Below are positions 121 through 58,957 of a stretch of DNA of 64,000 nucleotides, in pieces. The stretch lies in IMG/VR virus record IMGVR_UViG_2880395615_000008. One strand, 5' to 3'. The translations under genes were made by a program, and so were the position numbers. The notes below the pieces were generated by a model, which searched no databases, was not told where the DNA came from, and worked only from the letters and a program-made list of their open reading frames with translations. The first letter of the stretch is position 1. Each line of letters opens with the position of its first letter. Origin of the DNA: a virus (lineage: Duplodnaviria; Heunggongvirae; Uroviricota; Caudoviricetes).

Positions 121-1284
121 TTTTCTCTGCAAAACCTCTGCAAAACTGGTCATCAAATGACCAGTTTTTTTCCATTCCTTACCGCGTGCGTCGTTGTAAA
201 TATCGGTCATTTTTTGATTCGAATGGCCTAGCAAAATTTTGGTATCAACCCCCTGCTCTCTGAACAATCGCTCTGATAAAGATCTCTGCTCATGGAAAGA
301 GGGTGGGGTGCCATTAGCACGCCAGTTGTAATCCACAGAATCCCGGGCTTTTTTAAATGCAACGGTTAATGTTGCTGGCTTAACCATCCCGCCGCGCTTA
401 GCTGTCCCTTTCGCGTGATGGTGGTGCAATAGCCACGGACTAAGAACGCAATCGCGGCAGGATGACACCACATCATCTAGGGTGAGATTTAATTTATCGC
501 AACGCAGAGCCAGAGGGATGGCAATCCGGGTTCCTGTTTTTTGCTGTTCGACATGACGATAACCATCCCGGATATCCGAAAATTGCATTTTGCAAATATC
601 TGAAAGGCGCTGGCCTGTCATCAGTGCCAGCAGCATACCGCGCTGTAAAAAGTAACCATCCTTTTCCGCTGCGTTATAAATCATCATCCACTCATCAAAA
701 GTCAGTCGCTGTCTTGATATCCGCACCTGCGGTTTTTTTGCAGATTCTGCAGGGTTAAAGCCTGGCGGGACATCGCCCGTTTGCTGAGCTTCCCGGAAAA
801 CATCGATCAGTACTTTCCTGAAAATTTGTCCCATTCTGTTATGTCCTCTGGCCTTGTACTCTTCCAGTACTGATACCACATCTTTTACGGTTATGGCATC
901 TAACGGTCTGGTGCCAAAACGTTCATCAAATACCCTGAGAGGGGCCGCTTTCTGTTTCAGCGTGTTGAGTTTGATCTCGCCGTTTTCATATCTTTCCTGT
1001 TGAATTTTTCTGTAATTATTCAGAAAAATGGTAACGGTTGATGAACCGCCGGTATCACTAATAATTTTCTCCTGCAGACTGAGCATTTGTTCCATTTGCT
1101 GCCGGGCAAGACGGCTGTTCGCTTCTGCTGCAATAGTTTCTGCCAGTTTCTGGTCAATACTGCCGAGACCGTGATTTTTGCCTGTTATGGGATGCCTGTA
1201 ACGCCAGTAAACTTTGTTATTTCTTTTGTCAAAATACGGAGATAATCCCGGAACATCGGTTTTATATTTTCGCGGGCGCGCCAT
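1..1284 (-). CDS. int: Lambdoid tyrosine integrase with frameshift-extended C-terminus (427 aa versus 376 aa in copy at 54399-55529)
   Basis: ORF-track protein near-identical to the 54399..55529 copy; lambda Int-like C-terminal region (HEQRSLSERL...LGHSNQKMTDIY). A7 run here versus A6 in copy 2 removes the stop after KEWKK and adds about 51 aa. Confidence 0.85.
   Translation of the reverse strand: MARPRKYKTDVPGLSPYFDKRNNKVYWRYRHPITGKNHGLGSIDQKLAETIAAEANSRLARQQMEQMLSLQEKIISDTGGSSTVTIFLNNYRKIQQERYENGEIKLNTLKQKAAPLRVFDERFGTRPLDAITVKDVVSVLEEYKARGHNRMGQIFRKVLIDVFREAQQTGDVPPGFNPAESAKKPQVRISRQRLTFDEWMMIYNAAEKDGYFLQRGMLLALMTGQRLSDICKMQFSDIRDGYRHVEQQKTGTRIAIPLALRCDKLNLTLDDVVSSCRDCVLSPWLLHHHHAKGTAKRGGMVKPATLTVAFKKARDSVDYNWRANGTPPSFHEQRSLSERLFREQGVDTKILLGHSNQKMTDIYNDARGKEWKKTGHLMTSFAEVLQRKLKTISCGEHKHPRIQSYRVFHGSNTRFILSRGIDIHVPH
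121..146. repeat. Two direct copies of 11-bp unit CTCTGCAAAAC between ompW stop and int 3' end (three copies at the prophage 2 site)
   Basis: Direct reading of ttttctctgcaaaacctctgcaaaactgg. Confidence 0.7.
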
Positions 1285-4117: not shown

Positions 4118-4363
4118 TTAAAGACCTGCCGGGATTTCGTTATTATCCTGGTGAATAACTTTATCGACCGGGTAACAGTTACCGGGAATTTTCTGTTCGG
4201 TTGCTGCAGTCACACACTCCTGCATTGTCCTGTGAACACTGACTGCAATATCAACTGGCTCTCCGGAAACAAGAAAAACTGTCAGAACAAGTGCAAATGC
4301 TGTATTCATTGCCAGCATCCTTTTTGTATCGGACGTAAACGGGCCAGCATTGAAAGAATGCAT
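4118..4363 (-). CDS. Hypothetical small protein with hydrophobic N-terminal segment
   Basis: 81-aa ORF (AFALVLTVFLVSGEP); diverged homologue at 58357..58545. Overlaps dicB 3' end. Confidence 0.35.
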   Translation of the reverse strand: MHSFNAGPFTSDTKRMLAMNTAFALVLTVFLVSGEPVDIAVSVHRTMQECVTAATEQKIPGNCYPVDKVIHQDNNEIPAGL

Positions 4364-4494
4364 ATTTTATTTAATAACTCCCGTTCGTGTTTTCTCTTGT
4401 TAATGGCATCTTCAGTAAATACAGGGTTACTGATAGTGACACCAATTTCAAAACAACCTTCAGACGTATTAACGTTTGGTAATAACGTTTCCAT
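4306..4494 (-). CDS. dicB: Cell-division inhibitor DicB homologue (62 aa from internal Met of ORF 4306..4599)
   Basis: METLLPNVNTSEGCFEIGVTISNPVFTEDAINKRKHERELLNKICILSMLARL... matches remembered Qin DicB; sits directly 3' of a DicF-like sequence as in the dicBF operon. Confidence 0.7.
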   Translation of the reverse strand: METLLPNVNTSEGCFEIGVTISNPVFTEDAINKRKHERELLNKICILSMLARLRPIQKGCWQ

Positions 4495-4663
4495 TATCGC
4501 GTCCTCAACAATGAATTTTGTGATGCGGTGCCTGGTGCCTCCAGGTGACGTTAACCAGTTAACAATTAACGCCGGATACAGTGAATCCCCCCATAACACT
4601 GTTTTTAGCTTTAACTGTTCCGCGTGCGCTTAGCCGCATTCACTGCATCACAAAATTCACTTT

Positions 4664-4719
4664 AAAAAGGGCGGACATCAGTTCATGGGCAAACAGATGC
4701 CGCCAAACGTCACCAGAAA
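4664..4719 (-). ncRNA. dicF: DicF-like small RNA, divergent variant
   Basis: Minus strand reads TTTCTGGTGACGTTTGGCGG-CATCTGTTTGCCCATGAACTGATGT-CCGCCCTTTTT: conserved DicF 5' end and terminator stem, replaced central/3' body. Confidence 0.55.
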
Positions 4720-5052
4720 ATTGATAACAGAGGGCGTTGCAGCGGGGTTGTCACTTAAGCGTATGGTCAACCTGACAACCCGGTGTCCTCAACGGGGAAG
4801 GAATAACCCCGCCATACTTACCGCTGCGCCATTTCGCGGAGTGCCACAACCGGAAGCGCACGGTCGACGAAAATTTAACGACAGGCTATCTATGAACCAG
4901 CAACCTCGCCGTGCGCTTTCGCGTTATGCTCTGACTTTTCAGAGAAATATCCTTTCAGTAAACTGTCAGTGCCGGATGTTCACCCGTGTCCGGCGCACGC
5001 ACTCCACTTCACCCGTGGAGAACTCCTTAATTACCAACCCTCAGGAGGGTGA

Positions 5053-5286
5053 ATGTTAAAATCAACTCTTATTGCTAAATGCCTTTATCAAAATCGCATG
5101 GTAAGCAGCATTTCAATAGGCGAGTCTGCAGTTAAAAGTATTTTCGAAGAGTACTTTCCCGGGCATGATTTTAATAAATGGAATACCAAATTACCGCCAG
5201 CAGTTTCAACGCGTATTCTGAAAGCAACCGAAAGAGCAAGTACAATTCGCGTTAACTATTTCATTAAAGATTTGTGGGATCTTTGA
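5053..5286 (+). CDS. Hypothetical 77-aa protein, AT-rich moron antisense to the leftward early operon
   Basis: ORF preceded by aggagg Shine-Dalgarno (ccctcaggagggtgaATG); visibly AT-rich; converges on ORF 5264..5671. Confidence 0.4.
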   Translation: MLKSTLIAKCLYQNRMVSSISIGESAVKSIFEEYFPGHDFNKWNTKLPPAVSTRILKATERASTIRVNYFIKDLWDL

Positions 5287-6548: not shown

Positions 6549-6956
6549 TTATTTATTTGCGCTTCTTTTGCGAGCTTTGAGTAGTTCTTCAAAAAGTTTG
6601 TTGAAATTCTCAACTCGAGCACGCATCTCTGACAACAGAGCCTTTTGCTCTGACTCAGGCAGTGCGTCGAACAGTTGAAGCAACTCTTTTTGATCTTCTG
6701 TCAGATTGACTGGCTGATTATCTGGGATCGGTTCGCCTGGTTGCTTATCTTCATCTCCAAAAAGAAGCCAAGTCGGCGAGCACTGAAGCGCCTGGCTCAG
6801 TGCGAATAATCTCTTCCCCGCTGGCTGTGTTTCATCTCTTTCCCATTGAGAAATTGTTACGTGAGCCACTTTGACCAGCTTACCTAATGCGGCCTGAGAC
6901 AGTTTTAATTTTTTTCGCCTGTATAAGAGGCGAGCACCGAAGGTTTCGTTTTTCAT
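6549..6956 (-). CDS. Prophage repressor, HTH XRE family (DicA-like)
   Basis: 135 aa; N-terminal HTH (LKLSQAALGKLVKVAHVTISQWERDETQPAGKRLFALSQALQCSPTWLLFGDEDKQP) resembles remembered DicA; divergent from Cro-like gene. Confidence 0.75.
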   Translation of the reverse strand: MKNETFGARLLYRRKKLKLSQAALGKLVKVAHVTISQWERDETQPAGKRLFALSQALQCSPTWLLFGDEDKQPGEPIPDNQPVNLTEDQKELLQLFDALPESEQKALLSEMRARVENFNKLFEELLKARKRSANK

Positions 6957-7032: not shown

Positions 7033-7260
7033 ATGTTGAAAATTGATGCTATAGCGTTTTTTGGCAGCAAAACAAAGCTTGCCAATGTCGCAGGAGTTAG
7101 GCTGGCAAGCGTTGCTGCATGGGGGGAACTGGTTCCTGAAGGTCGCGCGATGCGCCTGCAAGAGGCATCCGGCGGGGAACTTCAGTACGACCCCAAAGTT
7201 TATGACGAATATCGTAAGGCAAAGCGGGCGGGGCGGTTGAACAATGAAAATCACCACTGA
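7033..7260 (+). CDS. Cro-like small DNA-binding protein
   Basis: 75-aa ORF divergent from repressor, first gene of rightward operon. Confidence 0.5.
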   Translation: MLKIDAIAFFGSKTKLANVAGVRLASVAAWGELVPEGRAMRLQEASGGELQYDPKVYDEYRKAKRAGRLNNENHH

Positions 7261-20522: not shown

Positions 20523-20837
20523 ATGCTACATGATCACGTGGCAGAATGTCTGGAGAAAAAAGGACTGTACCGGAGAGCAGCTGAACGATGGGCAAAAGTG
20601 ATGGTACAGCTAAGTGATGACCAGAAAAGAAAAGTGGCGGCACAGAAACGAGCAGAGTGTTTGCGTAAGGCGCGCCGGACTCCGGTTTCACCGGTGAACC
20701 TGACCGAAATAAAACAAGCGGTCAACAGACTACATTCTGAGTTGGGAATGGGATTTGAAGAGCGGCGGGTATTCCGACGATATAAAGGGACAGGAGAACA
20801 GAATACGTCCGGAAACGCGCGGTCAAAAAAATGCTAA
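20523..20837 (+). CDS. PerC-family transcriptional regulator (Pch-like)
   Basis: 104 aa with LEKKGLYRRAAERW motif; AT/T-rich upstream region 20100-20520; location between lysis genes and terminase. Confidence 0.5.
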   Translation: MLHDHVAECLEKKGLYRRAAERWAKVMVQLSDDQKRKVAAQKRAECLRKARRTPVSPVNLTEIKQAVNRLHSELGMGFEERRVFRRYKGTGEQNTSGNARSKKC

Positions 20838-54398: not shown

Positions 54399-55529
54399 TC
54401 AAATGACCAGTTTTTTCCATTCCTTACCGCGTGCGTCGTTGTAAATATCGATCATTTTTTGATTCGAATGGCCTAGCAAAATTTTGGTATCAACCCCCTG
54501 CTCTCTGAACAATCGCTCTGATAAAGATCTCTGCTCATGGAAAGAGGGTGGGGTGCCATTAGCACGCCAGTTGTAATCCACAGAATCCCGGGCTTTTTTA
54601 AATGCAACGGTTAATGTTGCTGGCTTAACCATCCCGCCGCGCTTAGCTGTCCCTTTCGCGTGATGGTGGTGCAATAGCCACGGACTAAGAACGCAATCGC
54701 GGCAGGATGACACCACATCATCCAGGGTGAGATTTAATTTATCGCAACGCAGAGCCAGAGGGATGGCAATCCGGGTTCCTGTTTTTTGCTGTTCGACATG
54801 AAGATAACCATCCCGGATATCCGAAAATTGCATTTTGCAAATATCTGAAAGGCGCTGGCCTGTCATCAGTGCCAGCAGCATACCGCGCTGTAAAAAGTAA
54901 CCATCCTTTTCCGCTGCGTTATAAATCATCATCCACTCATCAAAAGTCAGTCGCTGTCTTGATATCCGTACCTGCGGTTTTTTTGCAGATTCTGCAGGGT
55001 TAAAGCCTGGCGGGACATCGCCCGTTTGCTGAGCTTCCCGGAAAACATCGATCAGTACTTTCCTGAAAATTTGTCCCATTCTGTTATGTCCTCTGGCCTT
55101 GTACTCTTCCAGTACTGATACCACATCTTTTACGGTTATGGCATCTAACGGTCTGGTGCCAAAACGTTCATCAAATACCCTGAGAGGGGCCGCTTTCTGT
55201 TTCAGCGTGTTGAGTTTGATCTCGCCGTTTTCATATCTTTCCTGTTGAATTTTTCTGTAATTATTCAGAAAAATGGTAACGGTTGATGAACCGCCGGTAT
55301 CACTAATAATTTTCTCCTGCAGACTGAGCATTTGTTCCATTTGCTGCCGGGCAAGACGGCTGTTCGCTTCTGCTGCAATAGTTTCTGCCAGTTTCTGGTC
55401 AATACTGCCGAGACCGTGATTTTTGCCTGTTATGGGATGCCTGTAACGCCAGTAAACTTTGTTATTTCTTTTGTCAAAATACGGAGATAATCCCGGAACA
55501 TCGGTTTTATATTTTCGCGGGCGCGCCAT
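54399..55529 (-). CDS. int: Lambdoid tyrosine integrase (376 aa), prophage 2
   Basis: Near-identical to 1..1284 copy but with normal stop (KEWKKLVI-stop). Confidence 0.9.
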   Translation of the reverse strand: MARPRKYKTDVPGLSPYFDKRNNKVYWRYRHPITGKNHGLGSIDQKLAETIAAEANSRLARQQMEQMLSLQEKIISDTGGSSTVTIFLNNYRKIQQERYENGEIKLNTLKQKAAPLRVFDERFGTRPLDAITVKDVVSVLEEYKARGHNRMGQIFRKVLIDVFREAQQTGDVPPGFNPAESAKKPQVRISRQRLTFDEWMMIYNAAEKDGYFLQRGMLLALMTGQRLSDICKMQFSDIRDGYLHVEQQKTGTRIAIPLALRCDKLNLTLDDVVSSCRDCVLSPWLLHHHHAKGTAKRGGMVKPATLTVAFKKARDSVDYNWRANGTPPSFHEQRSLSERLFREQGVDTKILLGHSNQKMIDIYNDARGKEWKKLVI

Positions 55530-58899: not shown

Positions 58900-58957
58900 A
58901 AAAAGGGCGGCAGAGCAGCCACGGAGTAAAACTGATACCGCCAAACGTCACCAGAAA
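58900..58957 (-). ncRNA. dicF: DicF small RNA (canonical-type)
   Basis: Minus strand reads TTTCTGGTGACGTTTGGCGGTATCAGTTTTACTCCGTGGCTGCTCTGCCGCCCTTTTT, about one substitution from remembered K-12 DicF. Confidence 0.8.

What the first reader, a model, noticed from the sequence alone, without database searches (positions are those of the whole stretch)
4664..4719. Divergent DicF sRNA variant in prophage 1
Prophage 2 carries a near-canonical DicF. The prophage 1 copy keeps the first about 20 nt and the terminator but has a replaced central and 3' body. Remembered DicF biology places mRNA-pairing regions in both ends, so this variant may have an altered target set.
Basis: partly seen in the sequence, partly recalled or inferred. 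Interest (0 to 1): 0.55.

Follow-up and report, generated by a model that had tools for sequence, protein, structure and literature searches.

The report
Unannotated mosaic DicF small-RNA allele
A prophage in this O157:H7/O55:H7-type E. coli carries a real but unannotated second form of the DicF small RNA that keeps DicF's front pairing region but has a different hairpin, so it probably no longer silences the cell-division gene ftsZ.

Summary
Window 4664-4719 (-) encodes a 56-nt DicF-like RNA. Its first 20 nt, stem base and U-tail match the canonical DicF at 58905-58957 (-). Nt 21-45 are replaced. Against K-12 dicF, 101/101 upstream positions are identical versus 13/28 in the centre (p~2e-12).

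It is a discrete allele, not decay. The identical 57-mer occurs in 289 of 5,426 complete E. coli genomes (EDL933, Sakai Sp9, 86-24, O55:H7) and in E. albertii. It scores below Rfam's DicF threshold (43.5 vs 48 bits). It is absent from the four DicF loci published for EDL933.

The slot upstream of dicB/kilR holds a family of hairpin RNAs with a conserved stem and variable loops and 5' regions. KilS, a validated sRNA of prophage Rac, is one member. The variant joins the DicF 5' seed to a KilS-class 3' stem arm and a loop of its own.

Pairing calculations reproduce published DicF sites. They predict loss of ftsZ, manX and pykA pairing and retention of xylR pairing.

Expression and targets are untested. 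No variant-specific read appeared in the one EHEC interactome table I could search.

Verdict: new variant of a known kind, moderate interest.

The parts
4664..4719 (-). Variant DicF-family sRNA gene, 56 nt. Nt 1 = 4719; the U-run is 4664-4668.
   Evidence: Sequence. RF00039 match at 43.5 bits, E = 3e-8. Exact 57-mer in 289 of 5,426 E. coli genomes.
4700..4719 (-). 5' module, nt 1-20, identical to canonical DicF. Nt 1-15 are predicted single-stranded and form the seed used for xylR.
   Evidence: The xylR duplex (nt 4-15, hybrid -15.8 kcal/mol) is identical for both alleles.
4675..4699 (-). Variant-specific region, nt 21-45: CAUCUGUUUGCCCAUGAACUGAUGU. It comprises the upper stem, a 6-nt loop (GCCCAU) and a KilS-class 3' arm.
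4670..4704 (-). Terminator-type hairpin, nt 16-50, followed by C and U5.
   Evidence: Fold energy -17.3 kcal/mol, z = -4.7, 0 of 200 shuffles fold as well.
4720..4800 (-). Upstream leader, identical to the K-12 dicF upstream region. It includes AUCAA just before nt 1, which is the published RNase E-dependent 5' end in K-12.
   Evidence: 101/101 positions identical to K-12. Biogenesis from PMC9438474.
4495..4663 (-). Leader between the sRNA and dicB. It is conserved in Qin-type and Rac-type loci and contains the hairpin CACCUGGAGGCACCAGGCACC.
   Evidence: Alignment A3. Weak STnc100-like hits here and in all related loci.
4306..4494 (-). dicB, encoding the cell-division inhibitor protein (62 aa).
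   Evidence: ORF. RefSeq annotation of identical loci.
4118..4309 (-). ydfD-like gene (DUF1482).
6549..6956 (-). DicA-like HTH repressor on the same strand, at the head of the early-left operon. A divergent Cro/DicC-like gene lies at 7033-7260 (+).
   Evidence: ORFs. Annotation in strains 86-24 and EDL933.
58905..58957 (-). Canonical DicF (G38 allele) in the second prophage, used as the comparator.
   Evidence: RF00039 at 75 bits.
20523..20837 (+). pch gene, nucleotide-identical to Sakai pchA (the published EHEC DicF target), in the same prophage as the variant.

Best explanation
This is a second, discrete allele of the DicF-family small RNA. It sits in the early-left operon of the lambdoid prophage integrated next to ompW (Sp9 in Sakai): DicA-like repressor, small ORFs, ydfC, sRNA, dicB, ydfD.

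Inferred mechanism. When the operon is derepressed, the transcript is cut at the same AU-rich site as K-12 DicF, because the upstream sequence is identical. It ends at the hairpin plus U5, giving a ~56-nt Hfq-type sRNA. Its single-stranded 5' seed (nt 1-15) is identical to DicF's, so it should still act on 5'-seed targets such as xylR. The second pairing module, which canonical DicF uses on ftsZ, manX and pykA (about nt 26-54), is replaced. The replacement has a 3' arm identical to that of KilS, the Rac-prophage sRNA, plus a unique loop. The variant should therefore not repress ftsZ, manX or pykA through that route. In this prophage, division inhibition would be left to the DicB protein encoded downstream.

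Shown here: the sequence anatomy, its distribution, family membership of the hairpin, and predicted loss or retention of the known duplexes.

Inferred, not shown: transcription, processing, Hfq binding, and activity in trans.
For: Anatomy:
- 20/20 identity at the 5' end, shared CCGCCC-U5 and flank, and a sharply localised replacement.
- Stable hairpin: -17.3 kcal/mol, z = -4.7.
- Same operon context as K-12 dicF.

Discreteness and spread:
- Exact 57-mer in 289 genomes, 287 of them at 99% identity or more.
- Present in E. albertii and in 26 fetched loci, always with the DicF 5' module.
- No intermediates among the loci captured by the exact-match scans.

Family:
- The slot holds many alleles sharing GGCGGCAUC..CUGAUGUCCGCCC-U5 and the same downstream flank.
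- One of them is KilS (b4833), which was verified by northern blot and recovered by RIL-seq with Hfq.
- The variant hairpin is 83% identical to slot types H6 and H7, against 74% for canonical DicF.

Targets:
- My scan recovers DicF nt 35-54 on manX +35..+53, matching the published footprint G150-C167 with a 115-nt UTR.
- It recovers nt 32-53 on the ftsZ Shine-Dalgarno region and nt 26-43 on the pykA Shine-Dalgarno region, consistent with the DicF9 and DicF23 genetics.
- All three duplexes are absent for the variant. The xylR duplex (nt 4-15) is unchanged.
- A DicF-rpmI chimera in EHEC RNase E CLASH data contains AAACGUCACC, complementary to DicF nt 6-15, so the shared 5' seed is used in vivo.
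Against: - There is no expression evidence for this allele. No CLASH chimera in the held supplement of PMC5286369 carries variant-specific bases, although DicF reads there are very few.
- Nothing is listed at the locus in the Hfq-CRAC supplement for Sakai or in the EDL933 ncRNA tables.
- Stem covariation across the family is almost nil because the stem is nearly invariant. The structure is supported by conservation and energy only.
- The near-perfect identity across genomes may reflect recent prophage spread rather than selection.
- A simple terminator scan did not call the hairpin, because of its internal mismatch and bulge.
- Loss of pairing is predicted in silico only.
Confidence: 0.55

Rival explanations
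1. It acts only in cis. The hairpin is just the intrinsic terminator or attenuator in the dicB leader. Loop and upper-stem differences are neutral drift or patchwork recombination, and the released RNA has no trans function distinct from DicF.
For: Across the slot family the stem base and U-run are invariant, while the variation lies in the loop and in the region 5' of the stem. That is what relaxed constraint on a terminator would give. No variant-specific reads were found in the searchable interactome tables.
Against: The 5' seed and the processing context are fully preserved (101/101). Two members of the same slot, DicF and KilS, are experimentally supported Hfq-associated sRNAs. The 25-nt replacement keeps, and slightly strengthens, a hairpin rather than degrading it.
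Confidence: 0.25
2. It is a silent relic. The prophage operon is never derepressed in these strains, so the allele is carried passively with Sp9-type prophages.
For: The DicA-type repressor gene is intact immediately upstream. In EDL933 RNA-seq, even the annotated DicF copies had 0-118 reads.
Against: Canonical DicF from equivalent operons is detectable in EHEC. The operon, including dicB, ydfD and the repressor, is intact, not decayed.
Confidence: 0.12
3. It has gained a function. The new loop (UUUGCCCAU) retargets the sRNA to new mRNAs, possibly the pch (PerC-family) mRNA encoded in the same prophage.
For: AUGGGCAAA at pch +66..+74 is a perfect 9-nt complement of the variant loop and lies 14 nt from the segment complementary to the canonical allele. 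The pch copy at 20523-20837 is in the same prophage. The 9-mer occurs 5 times in the window against about 0.5 expected.
Against: In a shuffle test, 126 of 400 shuffled 25-mers gave an equal or better duplex with pch mRNA. The predicted energy is modest (hybrid -12.2, total about -8 kcal/mol). I could not read the published DicF-pchA pairing model, because PMC6628830 is not held.
Confidence: 0.08

Closest known systems
DicF sRNA (Rfam RF00039; Qin prophage, K-12 b1574)
   Same: Identical nt 1-20. Identical 101-nt upstream leader and processing context. Same GGCGG/CCGCC stem base and U5. Same position between ydfC and dicB. Same downstream leader.
   Different: Nt 21-45 are replaced, with 15 of 28 aligned columns differing. 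It scores below the Rfam gathering threshold (43.5 vs 48 bits). The anti-Shine-Dalgarno loop ACUCC and the GCUCUGCCGCC arm, which pair with ftsZ, pykA and manX, are absent.
KilS sRNA (K-12 b4833; Rac prophage, 5' UTR of kilR; PMC8175672)
   Same: Shares the 5' stem arm start GGCGGCAUC and has an identical 3' arm CUGAUGUCCGCCC plus U5. Same downstream flank AAAGUGAAUUUUGUGAUGC.... Same kind of location, directly upstream of a prophage division-inhibitor gene.
   Different: KilS is 98 nt with an unrelated 5' region (..AUUGCUGUGUGUAGUCCU) and a longer loop. It precedes kilR, not dicB. It may have its own promoter.
EcOnc01-03 / AsxR / AgvB prophage sRNA group in EHEC (PMC4104026)
   Same: A precedent for prophage sRNA families with a conserved terminator-proximal module and variable pairing regions.
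   Different: An unrelated sequence family at a different prophage position (late region or moron sites). Those act as anti-sRNAs.

Membership tests
DicF (Rfam RF00039) | Covariance-model score at or above the curated gathering score (48 bits) | tested here: not met
   43.5 bits, E = 3e-8 in a 601-nt scan. Not reported at the gathering threshold.
DicF (Rfam RF00039) | 5' single-stranded pairing region UUUCUGGUGACGUUU | tested here: met
   20/20 identical. Unpaired in the minimum-free-energy fold.
DicF (Rfam RF00039) | Position in the dicBF-type operon: after ydfC, before dicB, downstream of a DicA-type repressor | tested here: met
DicF (Rfam RF00039) | 3' terminator hairpin followed by a U-run | tested here: met
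   -17.3 kcal/mol, z = -4.7, followed by U5.
DicF (Rfam RF00039) | 3'-region complementarity to the ftsZ ribosome-binding site (the division-inhibitor function) | tested here: not met
   Canonical: hybrid -22.7, total -9.1 kcal/mol at ftsZ -28..-7. Variant-specific region: best hybrid -7.8, total -1.2.
DicF (Rfam RF00039) | Hfq-dependent stable ~53-nt RNA made by RNase E processing and termination | not testable with these tools
   Only the sequence context is conserved. No reads were found in the held supplements.
KilS / 'CAUC..GAUGU' hairpin class of the dicB/kilR-leader slot | Stem GGCGGCAUC ... CUGAUGUCCGCCC, then U5 and the flank AAAGUGAAUUUU | tested here: met
   The 3' arm and flank are identical. 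The 5' arm differs from KilS at one position (A25 to U).
KilS / 'CAUC..GAUGU' hairpin class of the dicB/kilR-leader slot | KilS-type 5' region and location upstream of kilR | tested here: not met
   The 5' region is DicF-type and the downstream gene is dicB.

The most novel reading that the evidence does not exclude
The leader of prophage division-inhibitor genes (dicB, kilR) is a modular, hypervariable sRNA slot. Lambdoid prophages recombine 5' seeds, loops and stems there to retarget host genes. DicF and KilS would be two sampled members. The O157:H7/O55:H7 variant would be a natural mosaic that uncouples DicF's 5'-seed regulon from ftsZ repression. It would also be an overlooked fifth DicF-family gene in EHEC that remains in 'all-dicF' deletion strains.
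Probability: 0.3. Interest if true: 0.65.

Novelty: new variant of a known kind. Interest (0 to 1): 0.5.

Why it matters
DicF is the classic prophage sRNA. In EHEC it is reported to link low oxygen to virulence through pchA. EHEC work counts four dicF copies, and I could not confirm which four.

The allele described here is present in EDL933, Sakai and 86-24. It is missed by Rfam's threshold and is not annotated in the RefSeq records I examined. It is also not among the four loci tabulated for EDL933. If it is expressed, it has the DicF 5' seed without the ftsZ/manX/pykA module. That makes it a natural separation-of-function allele, useful for dissecting which DicF phenotypes come from which pairing region. 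It is also a possible confounder in multi-copy deletion studies.

The wider observation is that DicF and KilS are homologous occupants of a variable slot. I found no mention of this in the papers I could search. It gives a concrete system for studying how sRNA target sets evolve by module exchange.

Tried and rejected
1. The simple terminator and promoter scan did not call the variant hairpin and gave promoter counts no higher than shuffles. Uninformative.
2. Covariation on 18 slot hairpins: the stem is nearly invariant, with only one pair showing a double change. There is no statistical power, so I make no covariation claim.
3. The variant loop versus pch mRNA: a perfect 9-mer complement exists, but 126 of 400 shuffles do as well. 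I kept this only as a low-probability rival.
4. Full-length duplexfold gave unrealistically long looped duplexes. I replaced it with a windowed, accessibility-corrected scan (after a time-out).
5. Expression look-ups: nothing at the locus in the EDL933 RNA-seq/RIBO-seq tables, the Sakai Hfq-CRAC supplement or the RNase E CLASH supplement.
6. A full-text search for the variant sequence found no papers. A search for DicF-like, variant or paralog terms found nothing relevant.
7. Melson & Kendall 2019, Murashko & Lin-Chao 2017 and Faubladier & Bouche 1994 are not held. I could not verify the identity of the 'four copies' in 86-24 or the published DicF-pchA duplex.
8. The metagenome scan for the variant loop found only a chance coding-sequence match. 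GenBank phage records have no match.
9. Genome-wide target prediction for nt 21-45 was not possible, because no whole genome is available to the script.
10. The opposite-strand ORF at 4685-5059 (+), which starts inside the hairpin, is unannotated in every RefSeq locus I examined. I dismissed it.

Caveat on the allele surveys: they used exact 20-24-nt anchors, so alleles with seed point changes are missed by those scans. One example is Sakai Sp4 DicF with A at position 11.

Full report
**Observation.** The minus strand of 4664-4719 reads UUUCUGGUGACGUUUGGCGGCAUCUGUUUGCCCAUGAACUGAUGUCCGCCCUUUUU. Rfam at gathering thresholds finds one DicF in the window, at 58905-58956 (-), scoring 75 bits. The 4664-4719 element matches the same model only in a permissive local scan: 43.5 bits against a gathering score of 48, E = 3e-8. 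The DicF 5' 20-mer and the 3' end plus flank CCGCCCUUUUUAAAGUGAAUUUU each occur exactly twice in the window, with none expected by chance. Aligning 200 nt around each copy shows about 97% identical flanks around a replaced centre. Against the K-12 dicF region the pattern is sharper still: 101/101 identical upstream including the seed, 13 matches and 15 mismatches for nt 21-46, and 175/184 downstream, Fisher p = 2e-12. Both RNAs fold with a free 5' 15 nt and a terminal hairpin. The variant hairpin is a little more stable (-17.3 vs -15.4 kcal/mol; hairpin alone z = -4.7). The one refinement is that the terminator keeps only its stem base and U-run.

**Context.** On the minus strand the order is: DicA-like repressor (6549-6956), small ORFs including a ydfC homologue, the sRNA, dicB (4306-4494), a ydfD-like gene, exonuclease, xis and int. 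A divergent Cro/DicC-like gene lies at 7033-7260. This is the same operon layout as K-12 Qin dicA-ydfABC-dicF-dicB-ydfD. The 800-nt region is 100% identical to O55:H7 strains and 99.8% identical to O157:H7 strains. In 86-24, EDL933 and Sakai the element lies in the lambdoid prophage integrated next to ompW, which is Sp9 in Sakai at 1,762,216-1,762,272. None of these RefSeq records annotates an RNA there.

**Distribution.**
- The exact 57-mer is found in 289 of 5,426 complete E. coli genomes, 287 of them at 99% identity or more, and never on plasmids. Named serotypes among the listed rows are mostly O157:H7 and O55:H7. At least one O121 strain also carries it.
- Canonical-type DicF is found in 3,822 genomes, with up to 6 places per genome.
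- It also occurs, identically, in the E. albertii type strain and in 20-odd IMG/VR prophage contigs.
- Wherever the variant loop occurs in a DicF context, it carries the DicF 5' module. The minor alleles are a one-base deletion in the seed (3 loci) and U45C (1 locus).
- GenBank phage records have no match.

**Is it one of the known EHEC copies?** Reviews state that EHEC has four dicF copies. The EDL933 ncRNA table of Neuhaus et al. lists four Rfam DicF loci in the old assembly, at 1,255,006, 1,881,271, 2,159,230 and 2,325,956. In the newer EDL933 assembly the canonical copy of the neighbouring prophage is at 1,894,339. That corresponds to the listed 1,881,271 with an offset of about 13 kb. The variant is at 1,847,321, which corresponds to none of the four. 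O157:H7 strain TR01 has four canonical-type places plus the variant. In these strains the variant is therefore a fifth, unlisted DicF-family locus. That the published four-fold deletion left it intact is an inference. I could not read that paper.

**The slot family.**
- I scanned IMG/VR with the shared 3' end and flank while excluding the canonical base before CCGCCC. This returned more than 120 loci.
- Classifying them shows many alleles at the same position. They share the stem GGCGGCAUC(A/G)G...CUGAUGUCCGCCC, U5 and the same downstream flank. They differ in their loops and in their 5' regions.
- All tested representatives are sub-threshold DicF hits in Rfam, at 28.6-42.8 bits.
- The commonest type is identical to the annotated K-12 ncRNA kilS (b4833) upstream of kilR in prophage Rac. 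Bar et al. predicted KilS from Hfq RIL-seq and verified it by northern blot. Their paper does not mention DicF. The KilS type occurs in 1,428 of 5,426 genomes.
- The DicF and KilS loci are also homologous through the roughly 170-nt leader down to dicB or kilR.
- The variant's 3' arm is identical to the KilS class. Its 5' arm differs by one base from both classes. Its loop is unique. Overall hairpin identity is 83% to slot types H6 and H7, 74% to canonical DicF and 71% to KilS.
- 5' modules and hairpins occur in several combinations. One 5' module is seen with two hairpins, another with at least four, and the DicF 5' module with three. This is consistent with module exchange.
- The stem itself is almost invariant, so covariation gives no independent support.
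- Caveat: these surveys used exact anchors. Alleles with point changes in the anchor are missed, for example Sakai Sp4 DicF with A at position 11.

**Consequences for pairing.** Published genetics place xylR pairing at the DicF 5' end. They place ftsZ, pykA and manX pairing in the 3' region. I ran a windowed duplex scan with opening-energy correction (ViennaRNA):

| Target | Canonical DicF nt | Target position | Hybrid (kcal/mol) | Total (kcal/mol) |
|---|---|---|---|---|
| manX | 35-54 | +35..+53 | -33.4 | -15.0 |
| ftsZ | 32-53 | -28..-7 | -22.7 | -9.1 |
| pykA | 26-43 | -18..+1 | -22.4 | -12.1 |
| xylR | 4-15 | +9..+21 | -15.8 | -14.2 |

The manX site matches the published footprint, G150-C167 of a transcript with a 115-nt UTR. 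For the variant, the ftsZ, manX and pykA duplexes disappear. What remains are the weak 5'-end contacts common to both alleles (-5.5 to -8 kcal/mol total). The xylR duplex is unchanged. Most other slot types, KilS included, also lack a convincing ftsZ duplex; type M2H6 is the exception, with hybrid -13.5 and total -8.4 kcal/mol through its 5' region. In RNase E CLASH data from Sakai, DicF-rpmI chimeras contain AAACGUCACC, the complement of the shared 5' seed. However, the sRNA halves of those reads carry canonical-specific bases, and no read in the held table has variant-specific sequence.

**pch.**
- The window carries a pch gene (20523-20837, +) in the same prophage. It is nucleotide-identical to Sakai pchA over the coding sequence and 80 nt upstream.
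- All strong predicted sites for canonical DicF on this mRNA use nt 31-58, including one overlapping the segment predicted to sequester the Shine-Dalgarno sequence.
- The variant keeps only nt 1-9 on +97..+106. It gains a perfect 9-nt loop match at +66..+74.
- That match is not significant by shuffling: 126 of 400 shuffles do as well. I treat it as a lead only.

**Interpretation.** The element is real and is a DicF-family allele. It is most simply described as a mosaic of the DicF 5' module with a KilS-class 3' stem arm and its own loop. The sharply bounded replacement, with no differences in 101 nt upstream, points to patch recombination or gene conversion within the slot family, or else to very strong local diversification. 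The two tandem prophages in the window share 100%-identical segments. Many genomes also carry KilS-type loci. Templates for such exchange are therefore available.

The most likely function is an Hfq-type sRNA with the DicF 5'-seed regulon but without the ftsZ/manX/pykA module (confidence about 0.55). The rivals are:
- a purely cis-acting terminator with neutral loop variation (about 0.25);
- a silent relic (about 0.12);
- loop-mediated retargeting, for example to pch (about 0.08).

**Verdict.** This is a new variant of a known kind. Interest is moderate (0.5). It is a ready-made separation-of-function allele in major pathogens and is probably an overlooked fifth DicF-family gene. It also exposes an apparently undescribed homology between DicF and KilS. 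Expression and targets remain untested.

Noticed in passing
window 20523-20837 (+): A 104-aa PerC-family pch gene, nucleotide-identical to Sakai pchA (coding sequence plus 80 nt upstream). It lies about 16 kb from the variant DicF in the same prophage. Its mRNA has separate short complements to the shared DicF seed (+98..+105), to the canonical EHEC allele (+52..+59) and to the variant loop (+66..+74).
   Followed up: partly
L272 8406-8503 (-), i.e. K-12 kilS b4833; also IMG/VR loci L157-L271: KilS (Rac prophage) and DicF (Qin prophage) share the terminator stem base, the U-run and about 170 nt of downstream leader. At least eight hairpin types and several 5' modules occupy this slot upstream of dicB or kilR. 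All are sub-threshold Rfam DicF hits.
   Followed up: partly
window 4475-4680 (-); also L274 15569-15718 and loci: A weak STnc100-like match (27-34 bits, gathering score 47) lies directly downstream of every DicF-slot element. It contains the conserved hairpin CACCUGGAGGCACCAGGCACC. A full STnc100 match lies at window 16283-16455 (+). It could be a nut-like or RNase III element of the dicB/kilR leader.
   Followed up: no
window 32552-32674 and 44806-44928 (-): Two identical isrC (Hfq-binding RNA) copies at 150 bits, inside 100%-identical direct repeats of at least 300 nt spaced 12,254 nt apart. A second repeat pair lies at 30262-30561 and 43739-44038.
   Followed up: no
window 166-465 and 54411-54710: A 100%-identical 300-nt direct repeat spaced 54,245 nt apart, essentially the same spacing as the two DicF loci (54,238). 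The two tandem prophages have homologous left arms, which gives scope for gene conversion between the two dicF regions.
   Followed up: no
window 4685, 9120, 20588, 58062, 60805 (+): The 9-mer ATGGGCAAA, the complement of the variant loop, occurs five times on the + strand against about 0.5 expected. One occurrence is the antisense of the variant itself and one is in pch. The others were not examined.
   Followed up: partly
window 11836-11985 (+); 15270-15342 and 15436-15509 (+): A sok antitoxin RNA (104 bits), with a hokD gene annotated at the equivalent position in EDL933 and 86-24, and two prophage tRNA genes. These are ordinary lambdoid cargo.
   Followed up: no
L274 15732-15783 (-), Sakai Sp4: The canonical-type DicF in Sp4 has A instead of G at position 11 of the 5' seed (76.9 bits). 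Seed point variants therefore exist among the 'canonical' EHEC copies and could also differ in 5'-seed targets.
   Followed up: no
PMC5286369 supplement file 5 (Sakai CLASH): DicF-rpmI chimeric reads, in which rpmI AAACGUCACC is complementary to DicF nt 6-15. This suggests a 5'-seed target in EHEC that I did not see listed among the validated DicF targets.
   Followed up: no
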